DNA from: Corallococcus sp. AB045
Lineage (GTDB): Bacteria; Myxococcota; Myxococcia; Myxococcales; Myxococcaceae
NCBI RefSeq assembly: GCF_003668895.1
Contig: NZ_RAWN01000061.1
Coordinates: 1 to 48,830, forward strand
Direction of reading: 5' to 3'
Length of the DNA stretch: 48,830 bases
The notes beneath the pieces were generated by a model. That model did not search any database and was not told the origin of the DNA. It was given only the letters and a program-made list of their open reading frames with translations. Shown piece by piece: positions 189 to 19,447 of this stretch. Both the position numbers and the translations under genes were made by a program. Numbering within the stretch: position 1 is the first letter of the stretch; the number at the start of each line of letters is the position of its first letter.

Positions 189-3100
189 ATGAGCCGGCCC
201 TCCCAGCGACTGATCCAGCTCCTCCCCGGCCTCTACACGGCGCGGGACTCCACGCTCGCGGACCAGCCGCTCCTCAAGCTGCTCGCCGTGCTGGGCATGG
301 AACTGGACGCGTTCGCGAGCGCGGTGGACCAGCTCTGGGATGATCACTTCGTGGAGCGTGCGGGCCCGCAGGCGCTGCCGTTGCTCGCGGAGTTGATGGG
401 CGCACGGCTGATCACCGACGACCCTCGCGTGCAGCGCGGCGTGGTGGCTCGCGCGGTGGCGTGGCGCAGACGGAAGGGCACGCTCGCGTCGCTGGAGGAG
501 GTGCTCTCCGTCACCAGCCTCTGGGACGCGGAGGTCGACGAGTCCTTCCGTTCGCTGCTGGAGACCCAGGACCTCAATGACCTGCTGCCCTGGCGCGGTC
601 GCAGCGCGGTGATGTGGGATCCCATCGGCCTCGCGGATCCGCTCACCCGCCGCTCACCTGGCATCGAGCGTCCCCGCGACGGTGTCCCGGAGCGTGGCCC
701 CTTCATTGGCATCGCGCCGGGAGAGACGCTGGATCAGGCCTTGCGCCGGTTGGGGAGCGCGGATGCGGGCCGTGTCGCCGCGACGCCGCGCACGCTGGAC
801 CTGCTGGGCTGGGCACGTCCGGACGTCGCCCTCATCCGCACCGCGCGCCTGACGCCCGTGGAGTTGGAGGACGTCACCCCAGCCACCGTGCAAGCGCTGC
901 CCAACGGCTACCGGGGTTTCCGCGTGGATCCCCTGGACCGCGATGGTCCCCTGGTGTGGCTCAAGCCCCTGGAGCGCGCGGACCTCACCGGAGGCCTCAC
1001 CGCGCGCCATGAGCCCGCGCCTCCGTCGCTCGCCACGGGACGCACGGCGGCGATGCTGCTCACCCCCACCGCGCTGGCCGAGGACGCCGACGCCGCCGAA
1101 CGCGCGGATGCCATCACCGTCTCCGTCGACGGCATTCCGCTGGTGGGGCCGGAAGCCCTGCCGCTCCTGCGCGGACCGCTGCCCACCGCGCCCGTGGGGC
1201 CCGCGCCCACGCTGCGGTTCGCGGACCGGGGCAGGCCTTCGCCCGGAGACACCTGGCGACTGACGCTGCTCGCCGCGCGTGAGAACTCGGACACGGTGCT
1301 CCTGTCCACCGAGCTGGTGTCGGACGCCCTGAACACCGTCACCGTCACGCCGGAGGCGAACCAGCTCCTGGGCGGCACCACGGCGGCGCTGCTCGTCGAA
1401 CGCGTGAGCGGTGAGCCGCGCCTGCGCGATGTGGACGGTACGTGGCGCACCCTCGCCGTGGGCCTGCGCCAGGGGCCTCCTCGCAGCAACGCCGTCCGTG
1501 TGGACCTGGCCGGTGCGCCATGGGTCGCGCGCATCGAGCAACACCTCGCGGACGGCAGCCTGCGCCTTGCCCGCTTCGACGCGAGCGCCGACGGTGCGCC
1601 ATGGCAGGTGGTGGAGCTCAGCGGCGCGTTGCCTCCGGAGGGTCCCGGCATGTCCCTGGCCGCGGCTGGCGACTCGCTGTTGCTGGTGGCACCTGACGGT
1701 ACGGGGAAGCTGGGCGTGTGGTCGGTGACAGGCGTGGACACCGCGACTCCGACGGGGACGCGGCTGGACACCGCGAGCCCTCGGCAGCCCGCGGCGCGAC
1801 TGGCCCCCAGCCTGTGCGTGCGCGGCGGCCGGCTCTTCGTCTTCGGCGGTGACCTGGGTGGCGCGCCCACCGGAGACCTCTGGTCGCTGCCGGTCACGGG
1901 CGGACCGTGGCGTCCCCATGCGGTGCGCAACCGCCAGGAGCGCAAGGCCGCGACGCTGCTGAGCACGGCGCAAGGACTGATGCTCCTGGGCGGCGAGGCC
2001 GTGACGGGAGAACTGGCCGTGCCGGTGATGTCCTGCGACCCGGCCTCCGCGAGCCCTGTCTGGCGTTCCCTGGCCCCGCTGCCCATCACCGCGAACCTGC
2101 CCGGCACGCTCGTGGCCACCACCACCGCCGACGGCGTGGAGGCGCTCGTCTGGGCGGACACGACGCGTCCTCAATGGATGACGCTGAAGGCAGGCGAGGG
2201 TGCCTGGGTCGCGGGACTGCTGGAGCCCTCGGGCTCGAACCCGCCGGTTCCGGGTGAAGCGCTGTACGTCGATGGTCGCGTGCTCCTCGTGGATCCGGCG
2301 CCGCTGCCCGCGTCGGAGGTCGTCTTCTCACTGGGTGGGCGCGGCTACCTGGCGTTCCTGCCAGAGCTGGCCCTGCTCCCGGATGAGCTCCTGCGCTTCA
2401 ACGTCGCCAACGACGGCGCCGCGTTCATCGAGCCTCGCGAGGGCCAGCCGCTCCCGCTCGATTCCCGGCCCGGTGGCGCGTACCACTCGCGGGATGCCTC
2501 CGTCGCAGGTGGCGCGCGGCGCTACTCGGTGCCAGGACGGCTGCGGCGCCATCCGTTCCAGTTGCGCCAGCGAAGCCTGGGCCCGTGGACGACGCTCGCT
2601 CCGAGCATCGCCTCCGGCATCGTCGCGGTGGATCCGCGCCTGGGCCGCGTCGTGCTCCAGGACGACGCGCCCGTGGGCCGCGTCACCCTCTCCGCGCGGG
2701 TAGGGCGGGGCGCCTCATTGGGAGCGGGGCTGCTTCCGCCGGACCGCCGTCCGCCCGCGGCGTGGGCGGAGCCGGACTTCCCATTCATCGACCCACCGGA
2801 CCGTCCTGGCGACCGCTCCAGCACCGGCCTTCCTGTCACCGCGTGGATCTCCCCGGAGCGCGCGGGCGGAGTGCTGGCGGCCGGAGGCCAGGAGCGGCCC
2901 ATCGTCGCGACCATCGAGCAAGGTCTCGACTCCGGCGCGTCCGTGGTGCTGGCGACTGGAGGCCAGGCGCGACCCATCGGCTCGGTCGGCGCACAAGGTC
3001 TCGACTCCGGCGCGTCCGTGGTGCTGGCGACTGAAGGTCAGGTGCCGCCGGATATCGCGAACCTCGCAGAAGAGAGCCCATCCGGATCGCCGCCGATTCT

Positions 3101-3980
3101 GGGCCTCATCGGTTCGCCGCGTCTGGCTCCGGAGCGCCTGTCACAGGGGCTGGACTACGGGCTGTCCCTCTTCGCCGCGGACACGGGCGCGGTGCCCTGC
3201 ATCGGCGCGGACGAGCACGGCCTCTCGCTGGCGCTCTACCCGGGCTTCGGAGGCAGCGCGGCCACGCGTGTGTGGCTCGCGGGCCTGTGGCTCGCGGGAC
3301 GGCTGGACCTGGTGCTCGCTCGGGGACAAGCGGACCTGCGCTGGTGCAACCTGGGCGCGCCCGGACAGGTGGGACTGTGGATGCCCGGCGGTGGGCACCA
3401 GGACATCAGCGCGCGGCGCTCCCTGCCTCCCGCTGATGTGGAGCTGCGCCTCTACGGCTGCATGGTGGGCGCCATCGAGCTGCCGCCCTGGGTGCACCTC
3501 ATCGCCGCGGGCTGCACCTTCGACGCGGGGGACCGTGACGCCGTCGCCATCCGCGCGGCGGGCGCGAGCGTTCGGCTGCGGCACTGCACGGTGCTGGGCG
3601 CCACGGAGGCGGGCGTGCTGGAGGCGTCCTCCTGCGCCTTCGCGGGCGAGGTGCGCACGGACAGGCCGGACCTGGGCTGGCTGCGCTACAGCCTTCTCGC
3701 GCGCGGTGGACAGCCTCCGGTGTCGCACCAGTCGCGGGTGCACACCGTGTCCTTCCAGTCGAACCGCCAGACGGACCCGAGCTACCTCGTCCTGGGCGAC
3801 AACAACGGCCCCGAAGCGCTCCACGCCTCCGAGCGCGGCGGAGTCCCCGGTGCCCACGACGAGCGCTCCAACCACGAGCGCGAACTCCAGGCGCGCACCG
3901 ACGACAGCATGCCCATTGGCATCACGCCCTTCCACGCCGACCGCAGCCAGGACGACCTCGTCCGGATGAGCCGACCATGA
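189..3980 (+). CDS. Baseplate wedge-like protein (1263 aa). The N-terminal domain resembles phage P2 tail protein I (gpI family), fused to Kelch-type beta-propeller repeats and a long C-terminal region. Alternative upstream start at 108.
   Basis: ORF 108..3980. An internal ATG at 189 has GGAGGTG 8 nt upstream, so it is preferred. The N-terminus (LLPGLY...LWDD...ALPLLAELMG...RGVVARAVAWRRRKGTLASLEEVL) matches from memory the conserved pattern of P2 gpI (LLP...LLPWLAW...KRAVIRDA..HCHKGTIGAIRRVV). The middle has Kelch-like repeats (LFVFGGDLGGAPTGDLWSL, LMLLGGEAVTGEL). The stop TGA overlaps the start of the next gene (ATGA). Confidence 0.7.
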   Translation: MSRPSQRLIQLLPGLYTARDSTLADQPLLKLLAVLGMELDAFASAVDQLWDDHFVERAGPQALPLLAELMGARLITDDPRVQRGVVARAVAWRRRKGTLASLEEVLSVTSLWDAEVDESFRSLLETQDLNDLLPWRGRSAVMWDPIGLADPLTRRSPGIERPRDGVPERGPFIGIAPGETLDQALRRLGSADAGRVAATPRTLDLLGWARPDVALIRTARLTPVELEDVTPATVQALPNGYRGFRVDPLDRDGPLVWLKPLERADLTGGLTARHEPAPPSLATGRTAAMLLTPTALAEDADAAERADAITVSVDGIPLVGPEALPLLRGPLPTAPVGPAPTLRFADRGRPSPGDTWRLTLLAARENSDTVLLSTELVSDALNTVTVTPEANQLLGGTTAALLVERVSGEPRLRDVDGTWRTLAVGLRQGPPRSNAVRVDLAGAPWVARIEQHLADGSLRLARFDASADGAPWQVVELSGALPPEGPGMSLAAAGDSLLLVAPDGTGKLGVWSVTGVDTATPTGTRLDTASPRQPAARLAPSLCVRGGRLFVFGGDLGGAPTGDLWSLPVTGGPWRPHAVRNRQERKAATLLSTAQGLMLLGGEAVTGELAVPVMSCDPASASPVWRSLAPLPITANLPGTLVATTTADGVEALVWADTTRPQWMTLKAGEGAWVAGLLEPSGSNPPVPGEALYVDGRVLLVDPAPLPASEVVFSLGGRGYLAFLPELALLPDELLRFNVANDGAAFIEPREGQPLPLDSRPGGAYHSRDASVAGGARRYSVPGRLRRHPFQLRQRSLGPWTTLAPSIASGIVAVDPRLGRVVLQDDAPVGRVTLSARVGRGASLGAGLLPPDRRPPAAWAEPDFPFIDPPDRPGDRSSTGLPVTAWISPERAGGVLAAGGQERPIVATIEQGLDSGASVVLATGGQARPIGSVGAQGLDSGASVVLATEGQVPPDIANLAEESPSGSPPILGLIGSPRLAPERLSQGLDYGLSLFAADTGAVPCIGADEHGLSLALYPGFGGSAATRVWLAGLWLAGRLDLVLARGQADLRWCNLGAPGQVGLWMPGGGHQDISARRSLPPADVELRLYGCMVGAIELPPWVHLIAAGCTFDAGDRDAVAIRAAGASVRLRHCTVLGATEAGVLEASSCAFAGEVRTDRPDLGWLRYSLLARGGQPPVSHQSRVHTVSFQSNRQTDPSYLVLGDNNGPEALHASERGGVPGAHDERSNHERELQARTDDSMPIGITPFHADRSQDDLVRMSRP
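2919..3049 (+). repeat. In-frame tandem duplication inside the gpI-like gene: 2 copies with a 75-bp period, encoding QGLDSGASVVLATxGQ twice.
   Basis: caaggtctcgactccggcgcgtccgtggtgctggcgactg occurs at 2919 and again at 2994. The first 40 nt are identical and the similarity then decays. Confidence 0.8.
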
Positions 3981-19229: not shown

Positions 19230-19447
19230 AGACAATGACGCCCCAGACGCGGAAGACGCCCGACCGCAAGCCCGCCATGAACAAGGCCATCGCGCCCTCG
19301 CAGCAGCCCAAGACGGACACAGCCAGGGCCCAGCTGGGAGCCGCGGCCAAGGGGCCCACGATGAAGGCCGCGGCCGGTGGCAGCTTCAAGGCGAAGAGCG
19401 CGCCCCGGGTCGCGGCGAACCCCAGCATCCGGATGCCGAAGAAGTAG
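19226..19447 (+). CDS. Small basic Ala/Lys-rich protein (73 aa). It is the last gene of the plus-strand operon.
   Basis: ATG 19226 has AGGAGG 7 nt upstream and ATGA overlap with the previous stop. It is in frame with ORF 18719..19447. Confidence 0.45.
   Translation: MKTMTPQTRKTPDRKPAMNKAIAPSQQPKTDTARAQLGAAAKGPTMKAAAGGSFKAKSAPRVAANPSIRMPKK

What the first reader, a model, noticed from the sequence alone, without database searches (positions are those of the whole stretch)
189..19447. Phage-tail-like baseplate operon (wedge, fibre, spike) with no sheath or tube gene in 19 kb
Eleven co-directional, mostly ATGA/GTGA-coupled genes encode a P2 gpI-like wedge protein, a 2537-aa beta-helix fibre, two tiny genes and a gpV/gp5-type spike, plus six uncharacterised proteins. 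The gene order (I, fibre, small, small, V, ...) is not that of P2 nor of canonical eCIS (Afp/PVC) loci. No sheath, tube, gp25/gpW or gpJ/gp6 homologue, and no PAAR protein, is recognisable in the window. There are no capsid, terminase or integrase genes, so this is not an ordinary prophage tail. With the convergent AAA+ ATPase and giant protein next door, it looks like a partial or divergent contractile-injection-system / tailocin-like locus, or a baseplate-derived system that lacks a contractile tail.
Basis: partly seen in the sequence, partly recalled or inferred. Interest (0 to 1): 0.8.

Follow-up and report, generated by a model that had tools for sequence, protein, structure and literature searches.

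The report
Distal half of a contractile injection locus
The "baseplate operon without a tail" is the downstream half of an ordinary-in-kind, roughly 50-kb phage-tail-like injection system of a Corallococcus myxobacterium; its sheath, tube, gp25 and gpJ genes lie just upstream of where the window was cut.

Summary
Window 189-19447 carries eleven co-directional, mostly 4-nt-overlapping genes. They include a Tail_P2_I protein (1263 aa), a 2537-aa DUF6519/beta-helix fibre, and a Phage_base_V/gp5-type spike. No sheath, tube, gp25, gpJ or PAAR gene is in the window.

A 99%-identical Corallococcus contig, and syntenic loci in Kofleriaceae, Polyangiaceae, Haliangiales and Micromonospora, show the missing genes directly upstream of g1. 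In order they are: a 652-aa unknown, sheath (804 aa), two gp19-type tubes, a 291-aa and a 70-aa protein, CIS_tube initiator, LysM, gpD-like hub, gp25, and two Baseplate_J proteins.

The convergent AAA+ ATPase and the giant annexin protein belong to the same system. In a metagenomic relative they follow g10 on the same strand.

The Tail_P2_I adaptor plus DUF6519 ("eBAP5") fibre pairing was already catalogued as an eCIS subtype in 2026.

Still open:
- Seven conserved genes with no recognisable relatives (g3, g4, g6-g10).
- The spike gene displaced behind the fibre.
- A DUF4255-like tail on the ATPase.
- Whether the machine is released or stays cell-anchored.

Interest is modest.

The parts
1..188 (.). 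3' part of the ~490-nt intergenic gap between the second Baseplate_J gene (outside the window) and g1. A GGAGGTG ribosome-binding site sits 8 nt before the g1 ATG.
   Evidence: Aligns with three mismatches to L001 9813-10000 of Corallococcus sp. AB011P. Sequence read directly.
189..3980 (+). g1, 1263 aa. Tail_P2_I (gpI/TssG-like) wedge and fibre-adaptor protein with a large Kelch/beta-propeller extension.
   Evidence: Pfam Tail_P2_I at 30.4 bits (cutoff 20.6), plus Kelch hints. NCBIfam tail_TIGR02242 hit is weak. 77 homologues of about 1200-1300 aa in Myxococcota, Actinomycetota and Gemmataceae.
3977..11590 (+). g2, 2537 aa. Giant tail fibre with an N-terminal DUF6519 (eBAP5) baseplate-anchor domain and a right-handed beta-helix.
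   Evidence: Pfam DUF6519 E 4e-9 and Beta_helix E 1e-11. The literature defines DUF6519 as the eBAP5 fibre anchor, placed downstream of Tail_P2_I (PMC12923769). Conserved at 39-48% identity over its full length in all related loci.
11622..11963 (+). g3, 113 aa. Conserved small protein of unknown function. Inferred to be a fibre or spike assembly factor.
   Evidence: 31-38% identical to counterparts at the same position in Micromonospora, Cryptosporangium and Kofleriaceae. No family hit.
11963..12172 (+). g4, 69 aa. Conserved small protein, possibly a small beta-barrel (guessed from the sequence only, not modelled). Inferred to be a spike-associated adaptor or chaperone.
   Evidence: 42-49% identical across phyla. 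Only sub-threshold hits: DUF6897 E 0.015 and the MM0924 family E 4e-4.
12169..13356 (+). g5, 395 aa. Central spike: OB fold, gp5-type beta-helix, and a conserved C-terminal helical hairpin (aa 338-390).
   Evidence: Phage_base_V E 9e-24, Gp5_C. AF2 model pLDDT 70. Foldseek hits to VgrG, 7aef_q, 7b5h, 4s37 and 3qr8 with E down to 7e-9. 58% identical between Corallococcus and Micromonospora.
13361..13555 (+). g6, 64 aa. Conserved small helical protein whose 3' end overlaps g7 by 32 nt. Inferred to be a chaperone for g7.
   Evidence: 42-47% identical across phyla. The 32-nt overlap is also present in L024 and L025.
13524..15134 (+). g7, 536 aa. Candidate tape-measure protein, carrying a conserved hydrophobic segment at aa 60-103.
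   Evidence: PHROG_305 tape measure E 6e-5. Length is held at 536/535/539/520 aa across phyla, and the SFDDPGD and C-terminal RRGxRSLA motifs are conserved. Hydropathy. No PDB relative.
15131..17293 (+). g8, 720 aa. Lineage-specific conserved protein of unknown function.
   Evidence: 33-40% identical across phyla. Only 65 clusters in 1.84 billion representatives. No Pfam, PHROG, NCBIfam or PDB relative. AF2 model is poor, pLDDT 51. Foldseek found nothing significant.
17290..18501 (+). g9, 403 aa. A conserved ~45-aa N-terminal helix followed by a long proline-rich, probably disordered region.
   Evidence: Alignment with L024 and L026 counterparts. Lower GC3 signal than its neighbours.
18498..19229 (+). 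g10, 243 aa. Conserved protein of unknown function and the last conserved gene of the + strand block.
   Evidence: 35-48% identical in Micromonospora, Cryptosporangium and Kofleriaceae. Present in L033, L034, L036 and L029.
19226..19447 (+). g11, 73 aa. Basic, low-complexity ORF. Not conserved outside Corallococcus, so doubtful as a system component.
   Evidence: GC3 of 0.90 in its frame. No counterpart in L024, L025, L026 or L033.
19491..19820 (.). Three tandem 110-nt units, each holding the 27-nt palindrome AAACCTGTCCGACAGTCGGACAGGTTT, in the convergent intergenic region. A REP/MITE-like element.
   Evidence: Repeat family. Chance expectation 0. The same palindrome sits in the Corallococcus-only gap upstream of g1.
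19879..21393 (-). 504-aa HEAT-repeat plus FGE-sulfatase-like protein. Accessory gene of the convergent operon.
   Evidence: Pfam hits. A 39-41% identical counterpart lies convergent to g10 in Kofleriaceae L026, and in L029 and L036.
21393..22178 (-). 261-aa protein of unknown function in the convergent operon.
   Evidence: GC3-supported ORF. No family hit.
22175..22702 (-). 175-aa protein with weak zinc-ribbon hints in the convergent operon.
   Evidence: GC3-supported ORF. Sub-threshold DZR hit.
22715..30856 (-). Giant 2713-aa protein. It has annexin repeats, a strong transmembrane segment (aa 1593-1654) and a C-terminal HExxH motif. Inferred to be the system's cargo or a membrane adaptor.
   Evidence: Annexin E 1e-21. 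TM segment, KD 3.24. HExxH at residue 2642. A 231-aa region matches the 1699-aa protein that follows g10 in Micromonospora, E 2e-13. It follows the AAA gene on the CIS strand in L033. Annexin and long DUF4157 proteins are listed as eCIS-associated (PMC8213781).
30888..33329 (-). 813-aa AAA+ ATPase, the Afp15/Cis15 equivalent. Domain order is winged-helix, one CDC48-type AAA domain, then a C-terminal Pvc16_N (DUF4255)-like domain.
   Evidence: AAA E 1e-24, WHD E 3e-8. The C-terminal fragment hits Pvc16_N at 25.9 bits against a cutoff of 27, and the same weak hit recurs in two orthologues. The orthologue directly follows g10 in L033 (54% identity) and lies divergent from the sheath operon in Micromonospora L021 (47% identity).

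Best explanation
Window 189-19447 is the distal half of one complete contractile injection system (CIS) gene cluster of roughly 50 kb in a Corallococcus genome. The convergent operon at 19879-33329 belongs to the same cluster.

Shown:
- The proximal half lies just left of the window. In order it encodes a 652-aa unknown, sheath, two tube paralogues, a 291-aa and a 70-aa protein, tube initiator, LysM protein, gpD-like hub, gp25, and two gpJ paralogues.
- The window then supplies the gpI-type wedge/fibre adaptor (g1), the DUF6519-anchored giant beta-helix fibre (g2), and the OB-fold/beta-helix spike (g5). The spike is the other half of a split VgrG.
- A block of conserved lineage-specific genes follows (g3, g4, g6-g10).
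- The AAA+ ATPase and the giant annexin/TM protein are linked to the system by synteny in other genomes.

Inferred:
- A P2/R-pyocin-like wedge (two J, one I) carries the fibre.
- gpD plus g5 form the hub and spike on which the tube and sheath polymerise.
- g6/g7 act as chaperone and tape measure.
- The ATPase, with its DUF4255-like tail, acts in assembly, capping or cargo loading, as Afp15/Afp16 do.
- The giant protein is either the delivered cargo or a membrane adaptor.
- Fibre binding triggers the baseplate, the sheath contracts and the spike-tipped tube is driven into a target membrane.

I lean towards a released, extracellular particle (about 50%). A cell-anchored or cytoplasmic mode is the main alternative for that step.
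For: Upstream half:
- L001 (Corallococcus sp. AB011P) is 99% identical in g1, and its intergenic DNA matches window 1-188.
- Upstream of g1 it carries CIS_tube (27.3 bits), LysM/Tail_X, Phage_GPD (weak), GPW_gp25 (E 5.5e-14), Baseplate_J (E 2.6e-7) and a second J-like gene.
- L004 (C. exercitus chromosome) adds the sheath (Phage_sheath_1 E 1e-11, sheath_1C E 1e-10), the tube (Phage_T4_gp19 E 3e-29), a second tube ORF, and a left border formed by a PAS histidine-kinase gene.

Synteny:
- The whole order is syntenic in four other myxobacterial lineages and two Micromonospora genomes.
- g1-g10 are syntenic in Micromonospora, Cryptosporangium, Kofleriaceae and several metagenome contigs.
- The AAA orthologue and the giant directly follow g10 on the same strand in L033. 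The AAA orthologue flanks the sheath operon in L021.

Individual parts and context:
- Spike fold confirmed.
- The sheath's nearest solved relatives are CIS sheaths.
- The literature already defines the Tail_P2_I plus DUF6519-fibre eCIS subtype. It also lists Tail_P2_I, LysM, GerE, DUF4157 and annexin as eCIS-associated.
- No capsid, terminase or integrase gene on either side.
Against: - The upstream half is seen in a 99%-identical relative and in syntenic genomes, not in the window's own record.
- No PAAR protein was found.
- No clear Pvc16_N/DUF4255 cap gene was found. There is only a sub-threshold C-terminal domain on the ATPase.
- The gpD assignment is below Pfam's cutoff (20.5 against 30.1 bits).
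- The tape-measure call for g7 rests on a weak PHROG hit and on length conservation.
- g8-g10 and the 652-aa protein have no assignable role.
- Nothing here shows that particles are made, or whether they are released. The sheath's closest solved relatives (haloarchaeal T6SS-like CIS, Streptomyces cytoplasmic CIS) do not act extracellularly.
Confidence: 0.9

Rival explanations
1. A baseplate-derived machine that works without a contractile tail, or a decayed partial CIS locus.
For: Within the 48.8-kb window no ORF hits sheath, tube, gp25 or gpJ families.
Against: All of these genes lie directly upstream in the 99%-identical strain and in every syntenic relative examined. They are intact and translationally coupled. 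In Micromonospora the second gpJ gene overlaps g1 by 4 nt.
Confidence: 0.02
2. A P2-like prophage tail or an R-type tailocin released by lysis to kill related bacteria.
For: The parts are P2-like: gpI, gpV, gpD-like, gpW, gpJ, gpX-like LysM. The wedge composition of two J plus one I resembles R2 pyocin. Foldseek hits include the R2 pyocin spike and P2 gpV.
Against: No head, terminase, integrase or lysis cassette on either flank. A dedicated AAA+ ATPase, a DUF4255-like domain and a giant annexin/HExxH protein are hallmarks of eCIS-type loci, not tailocins. The cluster is conserved across phyla as a chromosomal unit. The sheath is far closer to CIS sheaths (E 1e-90 to 1e-85) than to the pyocin sheath (E 3e-13).
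Confidence: 0.05
3. The same CIS cluster, but acting from inside the producer. It would be anchored to the cytoplasmic membrane (T6SS-like, as in haloarchaea) or free in the cytoplasm and recruited to the membrane (as CIS-Sc is via CisA). The giant TM/annexin protein and perhaps g7-g10 would serve as the anchoring or firing module, and the 'fibre' as a membrane or envelope tether.
For: - The sheath's nearest solved relatives are the Halogeometricum T6SS-like CIS (9ezm, E 1e-90) and the Streptomyces CIS (8bky/9gtp, E 1e-85).
- Both of those act while cell-associated.
- The giant protein has a strong TM segment, as does its Micromonospora counterpart.
- g7 has a conserved hydrophobic segment.
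- No lysis genes were seen.
- In haloarchaea the Cis12/13 positions are proposed to be membrane contacts.
Against: - A 2537-aa beta-helix fibre with a DUF6519 anchor, and a Kelch propeller on g1, are what the eCIS fibre catalogue interprets as target-binding apparatus.
- CIS-Sc lacks fibre genes.
- No homologue of CisA or Hbor_38620 was tested or seen.
- Sheath similarity does not fix the mode of action.
Confidence: 0.35

Closest known systems
eCIS subtype with a Tail_P2_I adaptor and DUF6519 ('eBAP5') fibres (Nat Commun 2026, PMC12923769)
   Same: A Tail_P2_I gene sits directly upstream of a fibre whose N-terminus is DUF6519. The fibre has a giant pectin-lyase-type beta-helix ('mega pectin lyase'). 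No Afp12 homologue is present. The subtype occurs in Actinomycetota and Myxococcota.
   Different: The paper catalogues fibres and does not describe the genes behind them. Here the fibre is followed by a displaced spike gene and seven conserved unknown genes. The DUF6519 match covers only the first ~50 residues of g2. The paper's supplement lists Corallococcus loci as eBAP3, and I could not map those entries to this locus.
Afp / PVC / AlgoCIS extracellular contractile injection systems
   Same: Sheath, gp19-type tube, tube initiator with LysM, gp25, Baseplate_J, spike, fibre, AAA+ ATPase, and large cargo-like proteins at the distal end. No head genes.
   Different: VgrG (Afp8) is split into a gpD-like hub gene and a gpV-like spike gene about 17 kb apart. 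gpI replaces Afp12. There are two J paralogues. No PAAR (Afp10) was found. No separate Afp16 was found; a DUF4255-like domain sits on the ATPase instead. There is one large 804-aa sheath gene rather than Afp2-4.
Streptomyces coelicolor CIS-Sc (type IId, cytoplasmic) and the Halogeometricum borinquense T6SS-like CIS (clade IIa)
   Same: These have the closest solved sheaths (E 1e-85 and 1e-90). The CIS-Sc wedge has two Cis11 and one Cis12, like the two J plus one I here. A GerE-type regulator lies beside the Micromonospora locus. DUF4157 proteins occur in or near the clusters.
   Different: CIS-Sc has no fibre gene and depends on the small bitopic protein CisA. The present lineage has a giant fibre, a Kelch-bearing gpI and a different accessory set. 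No CisA or Hbor_38620 homologue was identified.
Phage P2 tail / R-type pyocin
   Same: Part list V, W, J, I, H, X, D, FI, FII. Wedge stoichiometry is inferred to be the same. The spike fold matches 4s37 and 3qr8.
   Different: Proteins are 5-7 times larger (gpI 1263 aa against 176 aa). There is an AAA+ ATPase and giant accessory proteins. No lysis cassette and no phage context.

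Membership tests
Contractile injection system (phage-tail-like: sheath + tube + baseplate + spike) | Contractile sheath gene | tested here: met
   804-aa Phage_sheath_1 / sheath_1C protein in L004, and a 791-aa one in L022. PDB relatives are CIS sheaths. The gene lies about 12 kb upstream of window position 1 in syntenic Corallococcus genomes, not in the window itself.
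Contractile injection system (phage-tail-like: sheath + tube + baseplate + spike) | Inner tube gene (gp19/Hcp-like) | tested here: met
   Phage_T4_gp19 E 3e-29 for L004 8397-8885, plus a second paralogue at about 7809-8372. CIS_tube initiator in L001.
Contractile injection system (phage-tail-like: sheath + tube + baseplate + spike) | Baseplate wedge: gp25/gpW, gpJ/gp6, and gpI/gp7-class proteins | tested here: met
   GPW_gp25 E 5.5e-14, Baseplate_J E 2.6e-7, and a weaker second copy. Tail_P2_I in window g1 is above Pfam's cutoff.
Contractile injection system (phage-tail-like: sheath + tube + baseplate + spike) | Central hub and spike (gp27/gpD plus gp5/gpV, or VgrG) | tested here: met
   Spike g5: Phage_base_V E 9e-24, with fold matches to VgrG, gp5 and gpV. 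The hub hits Phage_GPD only at 20.5 bits, below the 30.1 cutoff, so the hub half is weaker.
eCIS (Afp/PVC-like) as defined by Chen 2019 / Geller 2021 | AAA+ ATPase (Afp15) in the cluster | tested here: met
   813-aa AAA protein at 30888-33329. Orthologues are physically linked to the cluster in L033 and L021.
eCIS (Afp/PVC-like) as defined by Chen 2019 / Geller 2021 | Tail terminator/cap with a DUF4255 (Pvc16_N) domain (Afp16) | tested here: inconclusive
   No separate gene found. There is a sub-threshold Pvc16_N match (25.9 bits against a cutoff of 27) at the C-terminus of the ATPase. It recurs in two orthologues at E 0.02-0.04. No PDB hit.
eCIS (Afp/PVC-like) as defined by Chen 2019 / Geller 2021 | PAAR tip protein (Afp10) | tested here: not met
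   No PAAR_motif hit in any small ORF of the window or of the upstream half. The spike instead ends in a conserved helical hairpin.
eCIS (Afp/PVC-like) as defined by Chen 2019 / Geller 2021 | Tape measure (Afp14) | tested here: inconclusive
   g7 hits PHROG_305 at E 6e-5 and has a conserved length. The 291-aa zinc-ribbon protein behind the tube genes is an alternative candidate.
eCIS (Afp/PVC-like) as defined by Chen 2019 / Geller 2021 | Tail fibre downstream of the baseplate genes | tested here: met
   g2 with a DUF6519 N-terminus and a beta-helix. The position directly after Tail_P2_I matches the ~90% rule in PMC12923769.
eCIS (Afp/PVC-like) as defined by Chen 2019 / Geller 2021 | Particles are released and act extracellularly | not testable with these tools
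   Needs particle purification, cryo-ET and killing assays. The closest solved sheaths come from cell-associated systems.
Prophage tail / R-type tailocin | Head, terminase or integrase genes (prophage), or a lysis cassette (tailocin), adjacent | tested here: not met
   The left border is a PAS histidine kinase and a SUKH protein. The right border is flavin reductase, SOD and a Ser/Thr kinase. No such families appear in the window.
Type VI secretion system | TssJLM membrane complex, TssB/C sheath, ClpV | tested here: not met
   No T6SS family hit among the cluster's proteins. The ATPase is CDC48-like with a single AAA domain. The only T6SS-named hit, a LysM-VgrG3_C protein at 45208-46887, is 12 kb outside the cluster.

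The most novel reading that the evidence does not exclude
This CIS lineage is shared by Myxococcota, Actinomycetota and apparently Planctomycetota. The most novel reading not excluded is that it is not a released eCIS but a cell-anchored or cytoplasmic machine. In that reading the conserved, family-less genes (g3, g4, g6-g10), the ATPase with its DUF4255-like tail and the giant TM/annexin protein together form a previously undescribed anchoring, firing or cargo-loading module. The helical-hairpin spike tip would replace PAAR.
Probability: 0.2. Interest if true: 0.6.

Novelty: new member of a known kind. Interest (0 to 1): 0.3.

Why it matters
The claim that would have mattered is a phage baseplate working without a tail, and it is removed: the tail genes are next door.

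What is left is a well-delimited example of an eCIS subtype that has so far been catalogued only by computation. Its features are giant wedge and fibre proteins, a split VgrG, and seven conserved genes without any known relative.

Myxobacteria are predators and actinomycetes undergo programmed hyphal death. Knowing whether this lineage fires outward or inward would therefore be of biological interest. The giant beta-helix fibre and the gpI adaptor could also interest people who re-target eCIS particles. None of this is surprising to a CIS specialist.

Tried and rejected
- **Exact-sequence look-ups.** Look-ups of g1 and g5 found nothing. I therefore used homologues: the window's strain is not in the collection, but a 99%-identical one is.
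- **Divergent upstream gene.** I first suspected a divergent gene at window 1-45, from an ATG on the minus strand. I rejected this because the stretch aligns to a non-coding gap in L001.
- **g8.** AF2 gave a poor model (pLDDT 51) and Foldseek found nothing significant. PDB profile searches for g7, g8 and the 652-aa protein gave only chance-level coiled-coil hits.
- **Other PDB searches.** Sequence searches for g1, the gpD-like hub, gpJ1 and the ATPase C-terminus returned nothing.
- **HEAT proteins.** The Micromonospora HEAT protein upstream of its locus is not detectably homologous to the window's HEAT/FGE protein.
- **RNA families.** Rfam found no RNA family in the window.
- **g6/g7 frameshift.** A programmed frameshift joining g6 to g7 was considered, by analogy with the chaperone gene upstream of phage tape-measure genes. 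It was dropped because g7 is in the +1 frame relative to g6, has its own GGGAGGA site, and the overlap is absent in L026.
- **Terminator scan.** No terminator-like site was found in the convergent gap.

Full report
**Source and gene calls.** The window is about 70% G+C. g1 is 99% identical to a protein of Corallococcus sp. AB011P. The source is therefore a Corallococcus (Myxococcota). Plain ORF lists are useless at this G+C content, so genes were called from third-position G+C.

**The observation.** Eleven + strand genes fill 189-19447. Six junctions are 4-nt overlaps (five ATGA, one GTGA), one is a 1-nt overlap and one a 32-nt overlap.
- g1 (1263 aa) passes Pfam's own cutoff for Tail_P2_I and has Kelch-type hints.
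- g2 (2537 aa) passes the cutoffs for DUF6519 at its N-terminus and for Beta_helix.
- g5 (395 aa) hits Phage_base_V at E 9e-24, with Gp5_C repeats.
- An AlphaFold model of g5 (pLDDT 70) matches T6SS VgrG, the AlgoCIS, tCIS, PVC, AFP and Streptomyces CIS spikes, T4 gp5, the R2 pyocin spike and P2 gpV.
- The other eight genes have no significant family.
- No GC3-supported ORF of the window hits a sheath, tube, gp25, Baseplate_J, PAAR, capsid, terminase or integrase family.

**What lies upstream.** Exact look-ups failed, so I fetched the contig of the 99%-identical g1 (L001). Its DNA matches window 1-300 with four mismatches, three of them in window 1-188. The window therefore begins inside a ~490-nt intergenic gap.

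Upstream of that gap, all on the same strand, L001 carries the following genes:
- the end of a 291-aa gene;
- a 70-aa gene;
- a CIS_tube protein (27.3 bits);
- a LysM/Tail_X protein;
- a 395-aa Phage_GPD-like protein (weak, 20.5 bits);
- GPW_gp25 (E 5.5e-14);
- a 1255-aa Baseplate_J protein (E 2.6e-7);
- an 833-aa J-like protein.

A genome scan with the tube-initiator protein gave 21 loci. In the complete C. exercitus chromosome (L004) the next genes upstream are two gp19-type tube genes (E 3e-29 for one; the other read directly). Further upstream come an 804-aa sheath (Phage_sheath_1 and sheath_1C) and a 652-aa unknown. The cluster ends there at a divergent PAS histidine kinase.

tblastn of all these proteins against every fetched locus shows the same order in Kofleriaceae, Polyangiaceae, Haliangiales and two Micromonospora genomes, at 35-69% identity. 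In Micromonospora the second J gene overlaps g1 by 4 nt.

**The distal half is equally conserved.** Contexts of spike homologues come from Micromonospora pattaloongensis, Cryptosporangium minutisporangium and a Kofleriaceae contig. A metagenome scan with a g7 profile adds more. All show gpI, fibre, about 105 aa, about 70 aa, spike, about 70 aa, about 535 aa, 720-815 aa, about 390 aa, and 161-236 aa, in that order. Alignments confirm real conservation of g3, g4, g6, g7, g8, g9 (N-terminus only) and g10. g11 has no counterpart.

g8's family is rare: 65 clusters among 1.84 billion representatives, all of similar length.

**The convergent operon belongs to the system.**
- In metagenome contig L033 the AAA orthologue (54% identity, full length) directly follows g10 on the same strand, and the giant protein follows it.
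- In Micromonospora sp. CB01531 the AAA orthologue (47%) lies divergent from the 652-aa/sheath operon.
- In Kofleriaceae the HEAT/FGE protein and an annexin giant are convergent to g10, as in the window.
- In the actinomycetes g10 is followed by 1699- and 1877-aa proteins. One carries the eCIS_core (DUF4157) domain. The other shares a 231-aa region with the window's giant at E 2e-13.

The ATPase has a winged-helix domain, one CDC48-type AAA domain and a C-terminal stretch. That stretch hits Pvc16_N (DUF4255) just under the cutoff, and the hit recurs in both orthologues.

The giant protein has annexin repeats, a strong transmembrane segment at aa 1593-1654 and a C-terminal HExxH motif.

**Comparison with what is known.** The 2026 eCIS fibre catalogue defines DUF6519 as the baseplate anchor "eBAP5". 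It places such fibres directly after Tail_P2_I genes, notes "mega pectin lyase" fibres, and calls this a previously missed eCIS subtype.

Geller et al. 2021 list several features as eCIS-associated:
- Tail_P2_I and LysM as shell domains;
- GerE regulators next to a quarter of loci;
- N-terminal DUF4157 proteins with very long linkers;
- annexin among the eukaryote-like domains.

A GerE response regulator flanks the Micromonospora locus.

The sheath's nearest solved relatives are the Halogeometricum T6SS-like CIS (E 1e-90) and the Streptomyces CIS (E 1e-85). These are well ahead of PVC/Afp (about 1e-40) and the pyocin (3e-13). Those two systems act while cell-associated. The CIS-Sc wedge has two Cis11 and one Cis12, which parallels the two J and one I here.

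**How it most likely works.**

Shown:
- A full complement of CIS parts is split across the window edge.
- VgrG is split into a gpD-like hub gene upstream and a gpV-like spike gene behind the fibre.
- The gpI-fibre pairing is present.
- The ATPase and the giant protein are linked to the cluster by synteny.

Inferred:
- g6/g7 are chaperone and tape measure. The support is a PHROG_305 hit at E 6e-5 and lengths of 536/535/539/520 aa with conserved terminal motifs.
- g3/g4 are spike or fibre assembly factors.
- The ATPase acts in capping or loading.
- The giant protein is cargo or a membrane adaptor.

Release as against cell anchoring cannot be decided here. I lean towards release because of the fibre and the propeller, but I give the cell-associated mode about one chance in three.

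**Verdict.** The feature is real, but its striking aspect is a window-edge artefact. It is a new member of a catalogued, experimentally uncharacterised eCIS subtype. Residual interest lies in the conserved unknown genes, the missing PAAR and cap, and the mode of action.

Noticed in passing
window 41214-43490 (+): A 758-aa bacterial homologue of the eukaryotic major vault protein (MVP_shoulder E 5e-45; Vault, Vault_2 and Vault_3 repeats). Bacterial MVP homologues in Myxococcales have been reported before (bioRxiv 10.1101/872010).
   Followed up: partly
window 19491-19820; also L001 9773-9793 and L004 19086-19666: Three tandem 110-nt units, each with the 27-nt palindrome AAACCTGTCCGACAGTCGGACAGGTTT, lie between g11 and the convergent operon. 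The same palindrome fills the Corallococcus-only gap between the second gpJ gene and g1. A REP/MITE-like element therefore brackets the g1-g11 block. None of the other 50 loci fetched by then has it.
   Followed up: partly
window 22715-30856 (-), residues 1593-1654 and 2642: The giant annexin protein has a very hydrophobic ~40-residue segment in its middle (KD 3.24) and a C-terminal HExxH motif (VHETRHYYQ). Its Micromonospora counterpart also has TM segments. It may be a membrane protein rather than a soluble cargo.
   Followed up: partly
window 30888-31120 (-), C-terminus of the AAA+ ATPase: A Pvc16_N (DUF4255)-like domain is fused to the C-terminus of the CIS ATPase. It is just under Pfam's cutoff but recurs in orthologues from a metagenome contig and from Micromonospora. 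No separate cap gene was found in the cluster.
   Followed up: partly
window 13524-13555 (g6/g7 overlap); L024 11435-11466; L025 11398-11429: The 32-nt overlap between the 64-aa gene and the candidate tape-measure gene is conserved between Corallococcus and two actinomycetes but absent in Kofleriaceae.
   Followed up: partly
window 13180-13356 (g5 residues 338-395): The spike ends in a helical hairpin that is well conserved among 50 spike homologues, instead of a beta apex, and no PAAR gene is present.
   Followed up: no
window 45208-46887 (+): A 559-aa protein with a LysM domain and a T6SS_VgrG3-like_C domain (E 9e-53), 12 kb outside the CIS cluster. No link to the cluster was established.
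   Followed up: no
window 34586-37309 (-) and 38380-39369 (-): A Ser/Thr kinase with WD40/PD40 repeats and an N-terminal zf-HC2 (anti-sigma-like) hint lies near a sigma-70 region-4 protein. This looks like a regulatory pair just beyond the cluster's right border.
   Followed up: no
L004 3513-5468 (upstream of the window): A 652-aa protein encoded directly before the sheath gene is conserved at 35-47% identity in all syntenic loci across phyla. It has no Pfam, NCBIfam or PDB relative. It is a candidate for the missing cap or terminator.
   Followed up: partly
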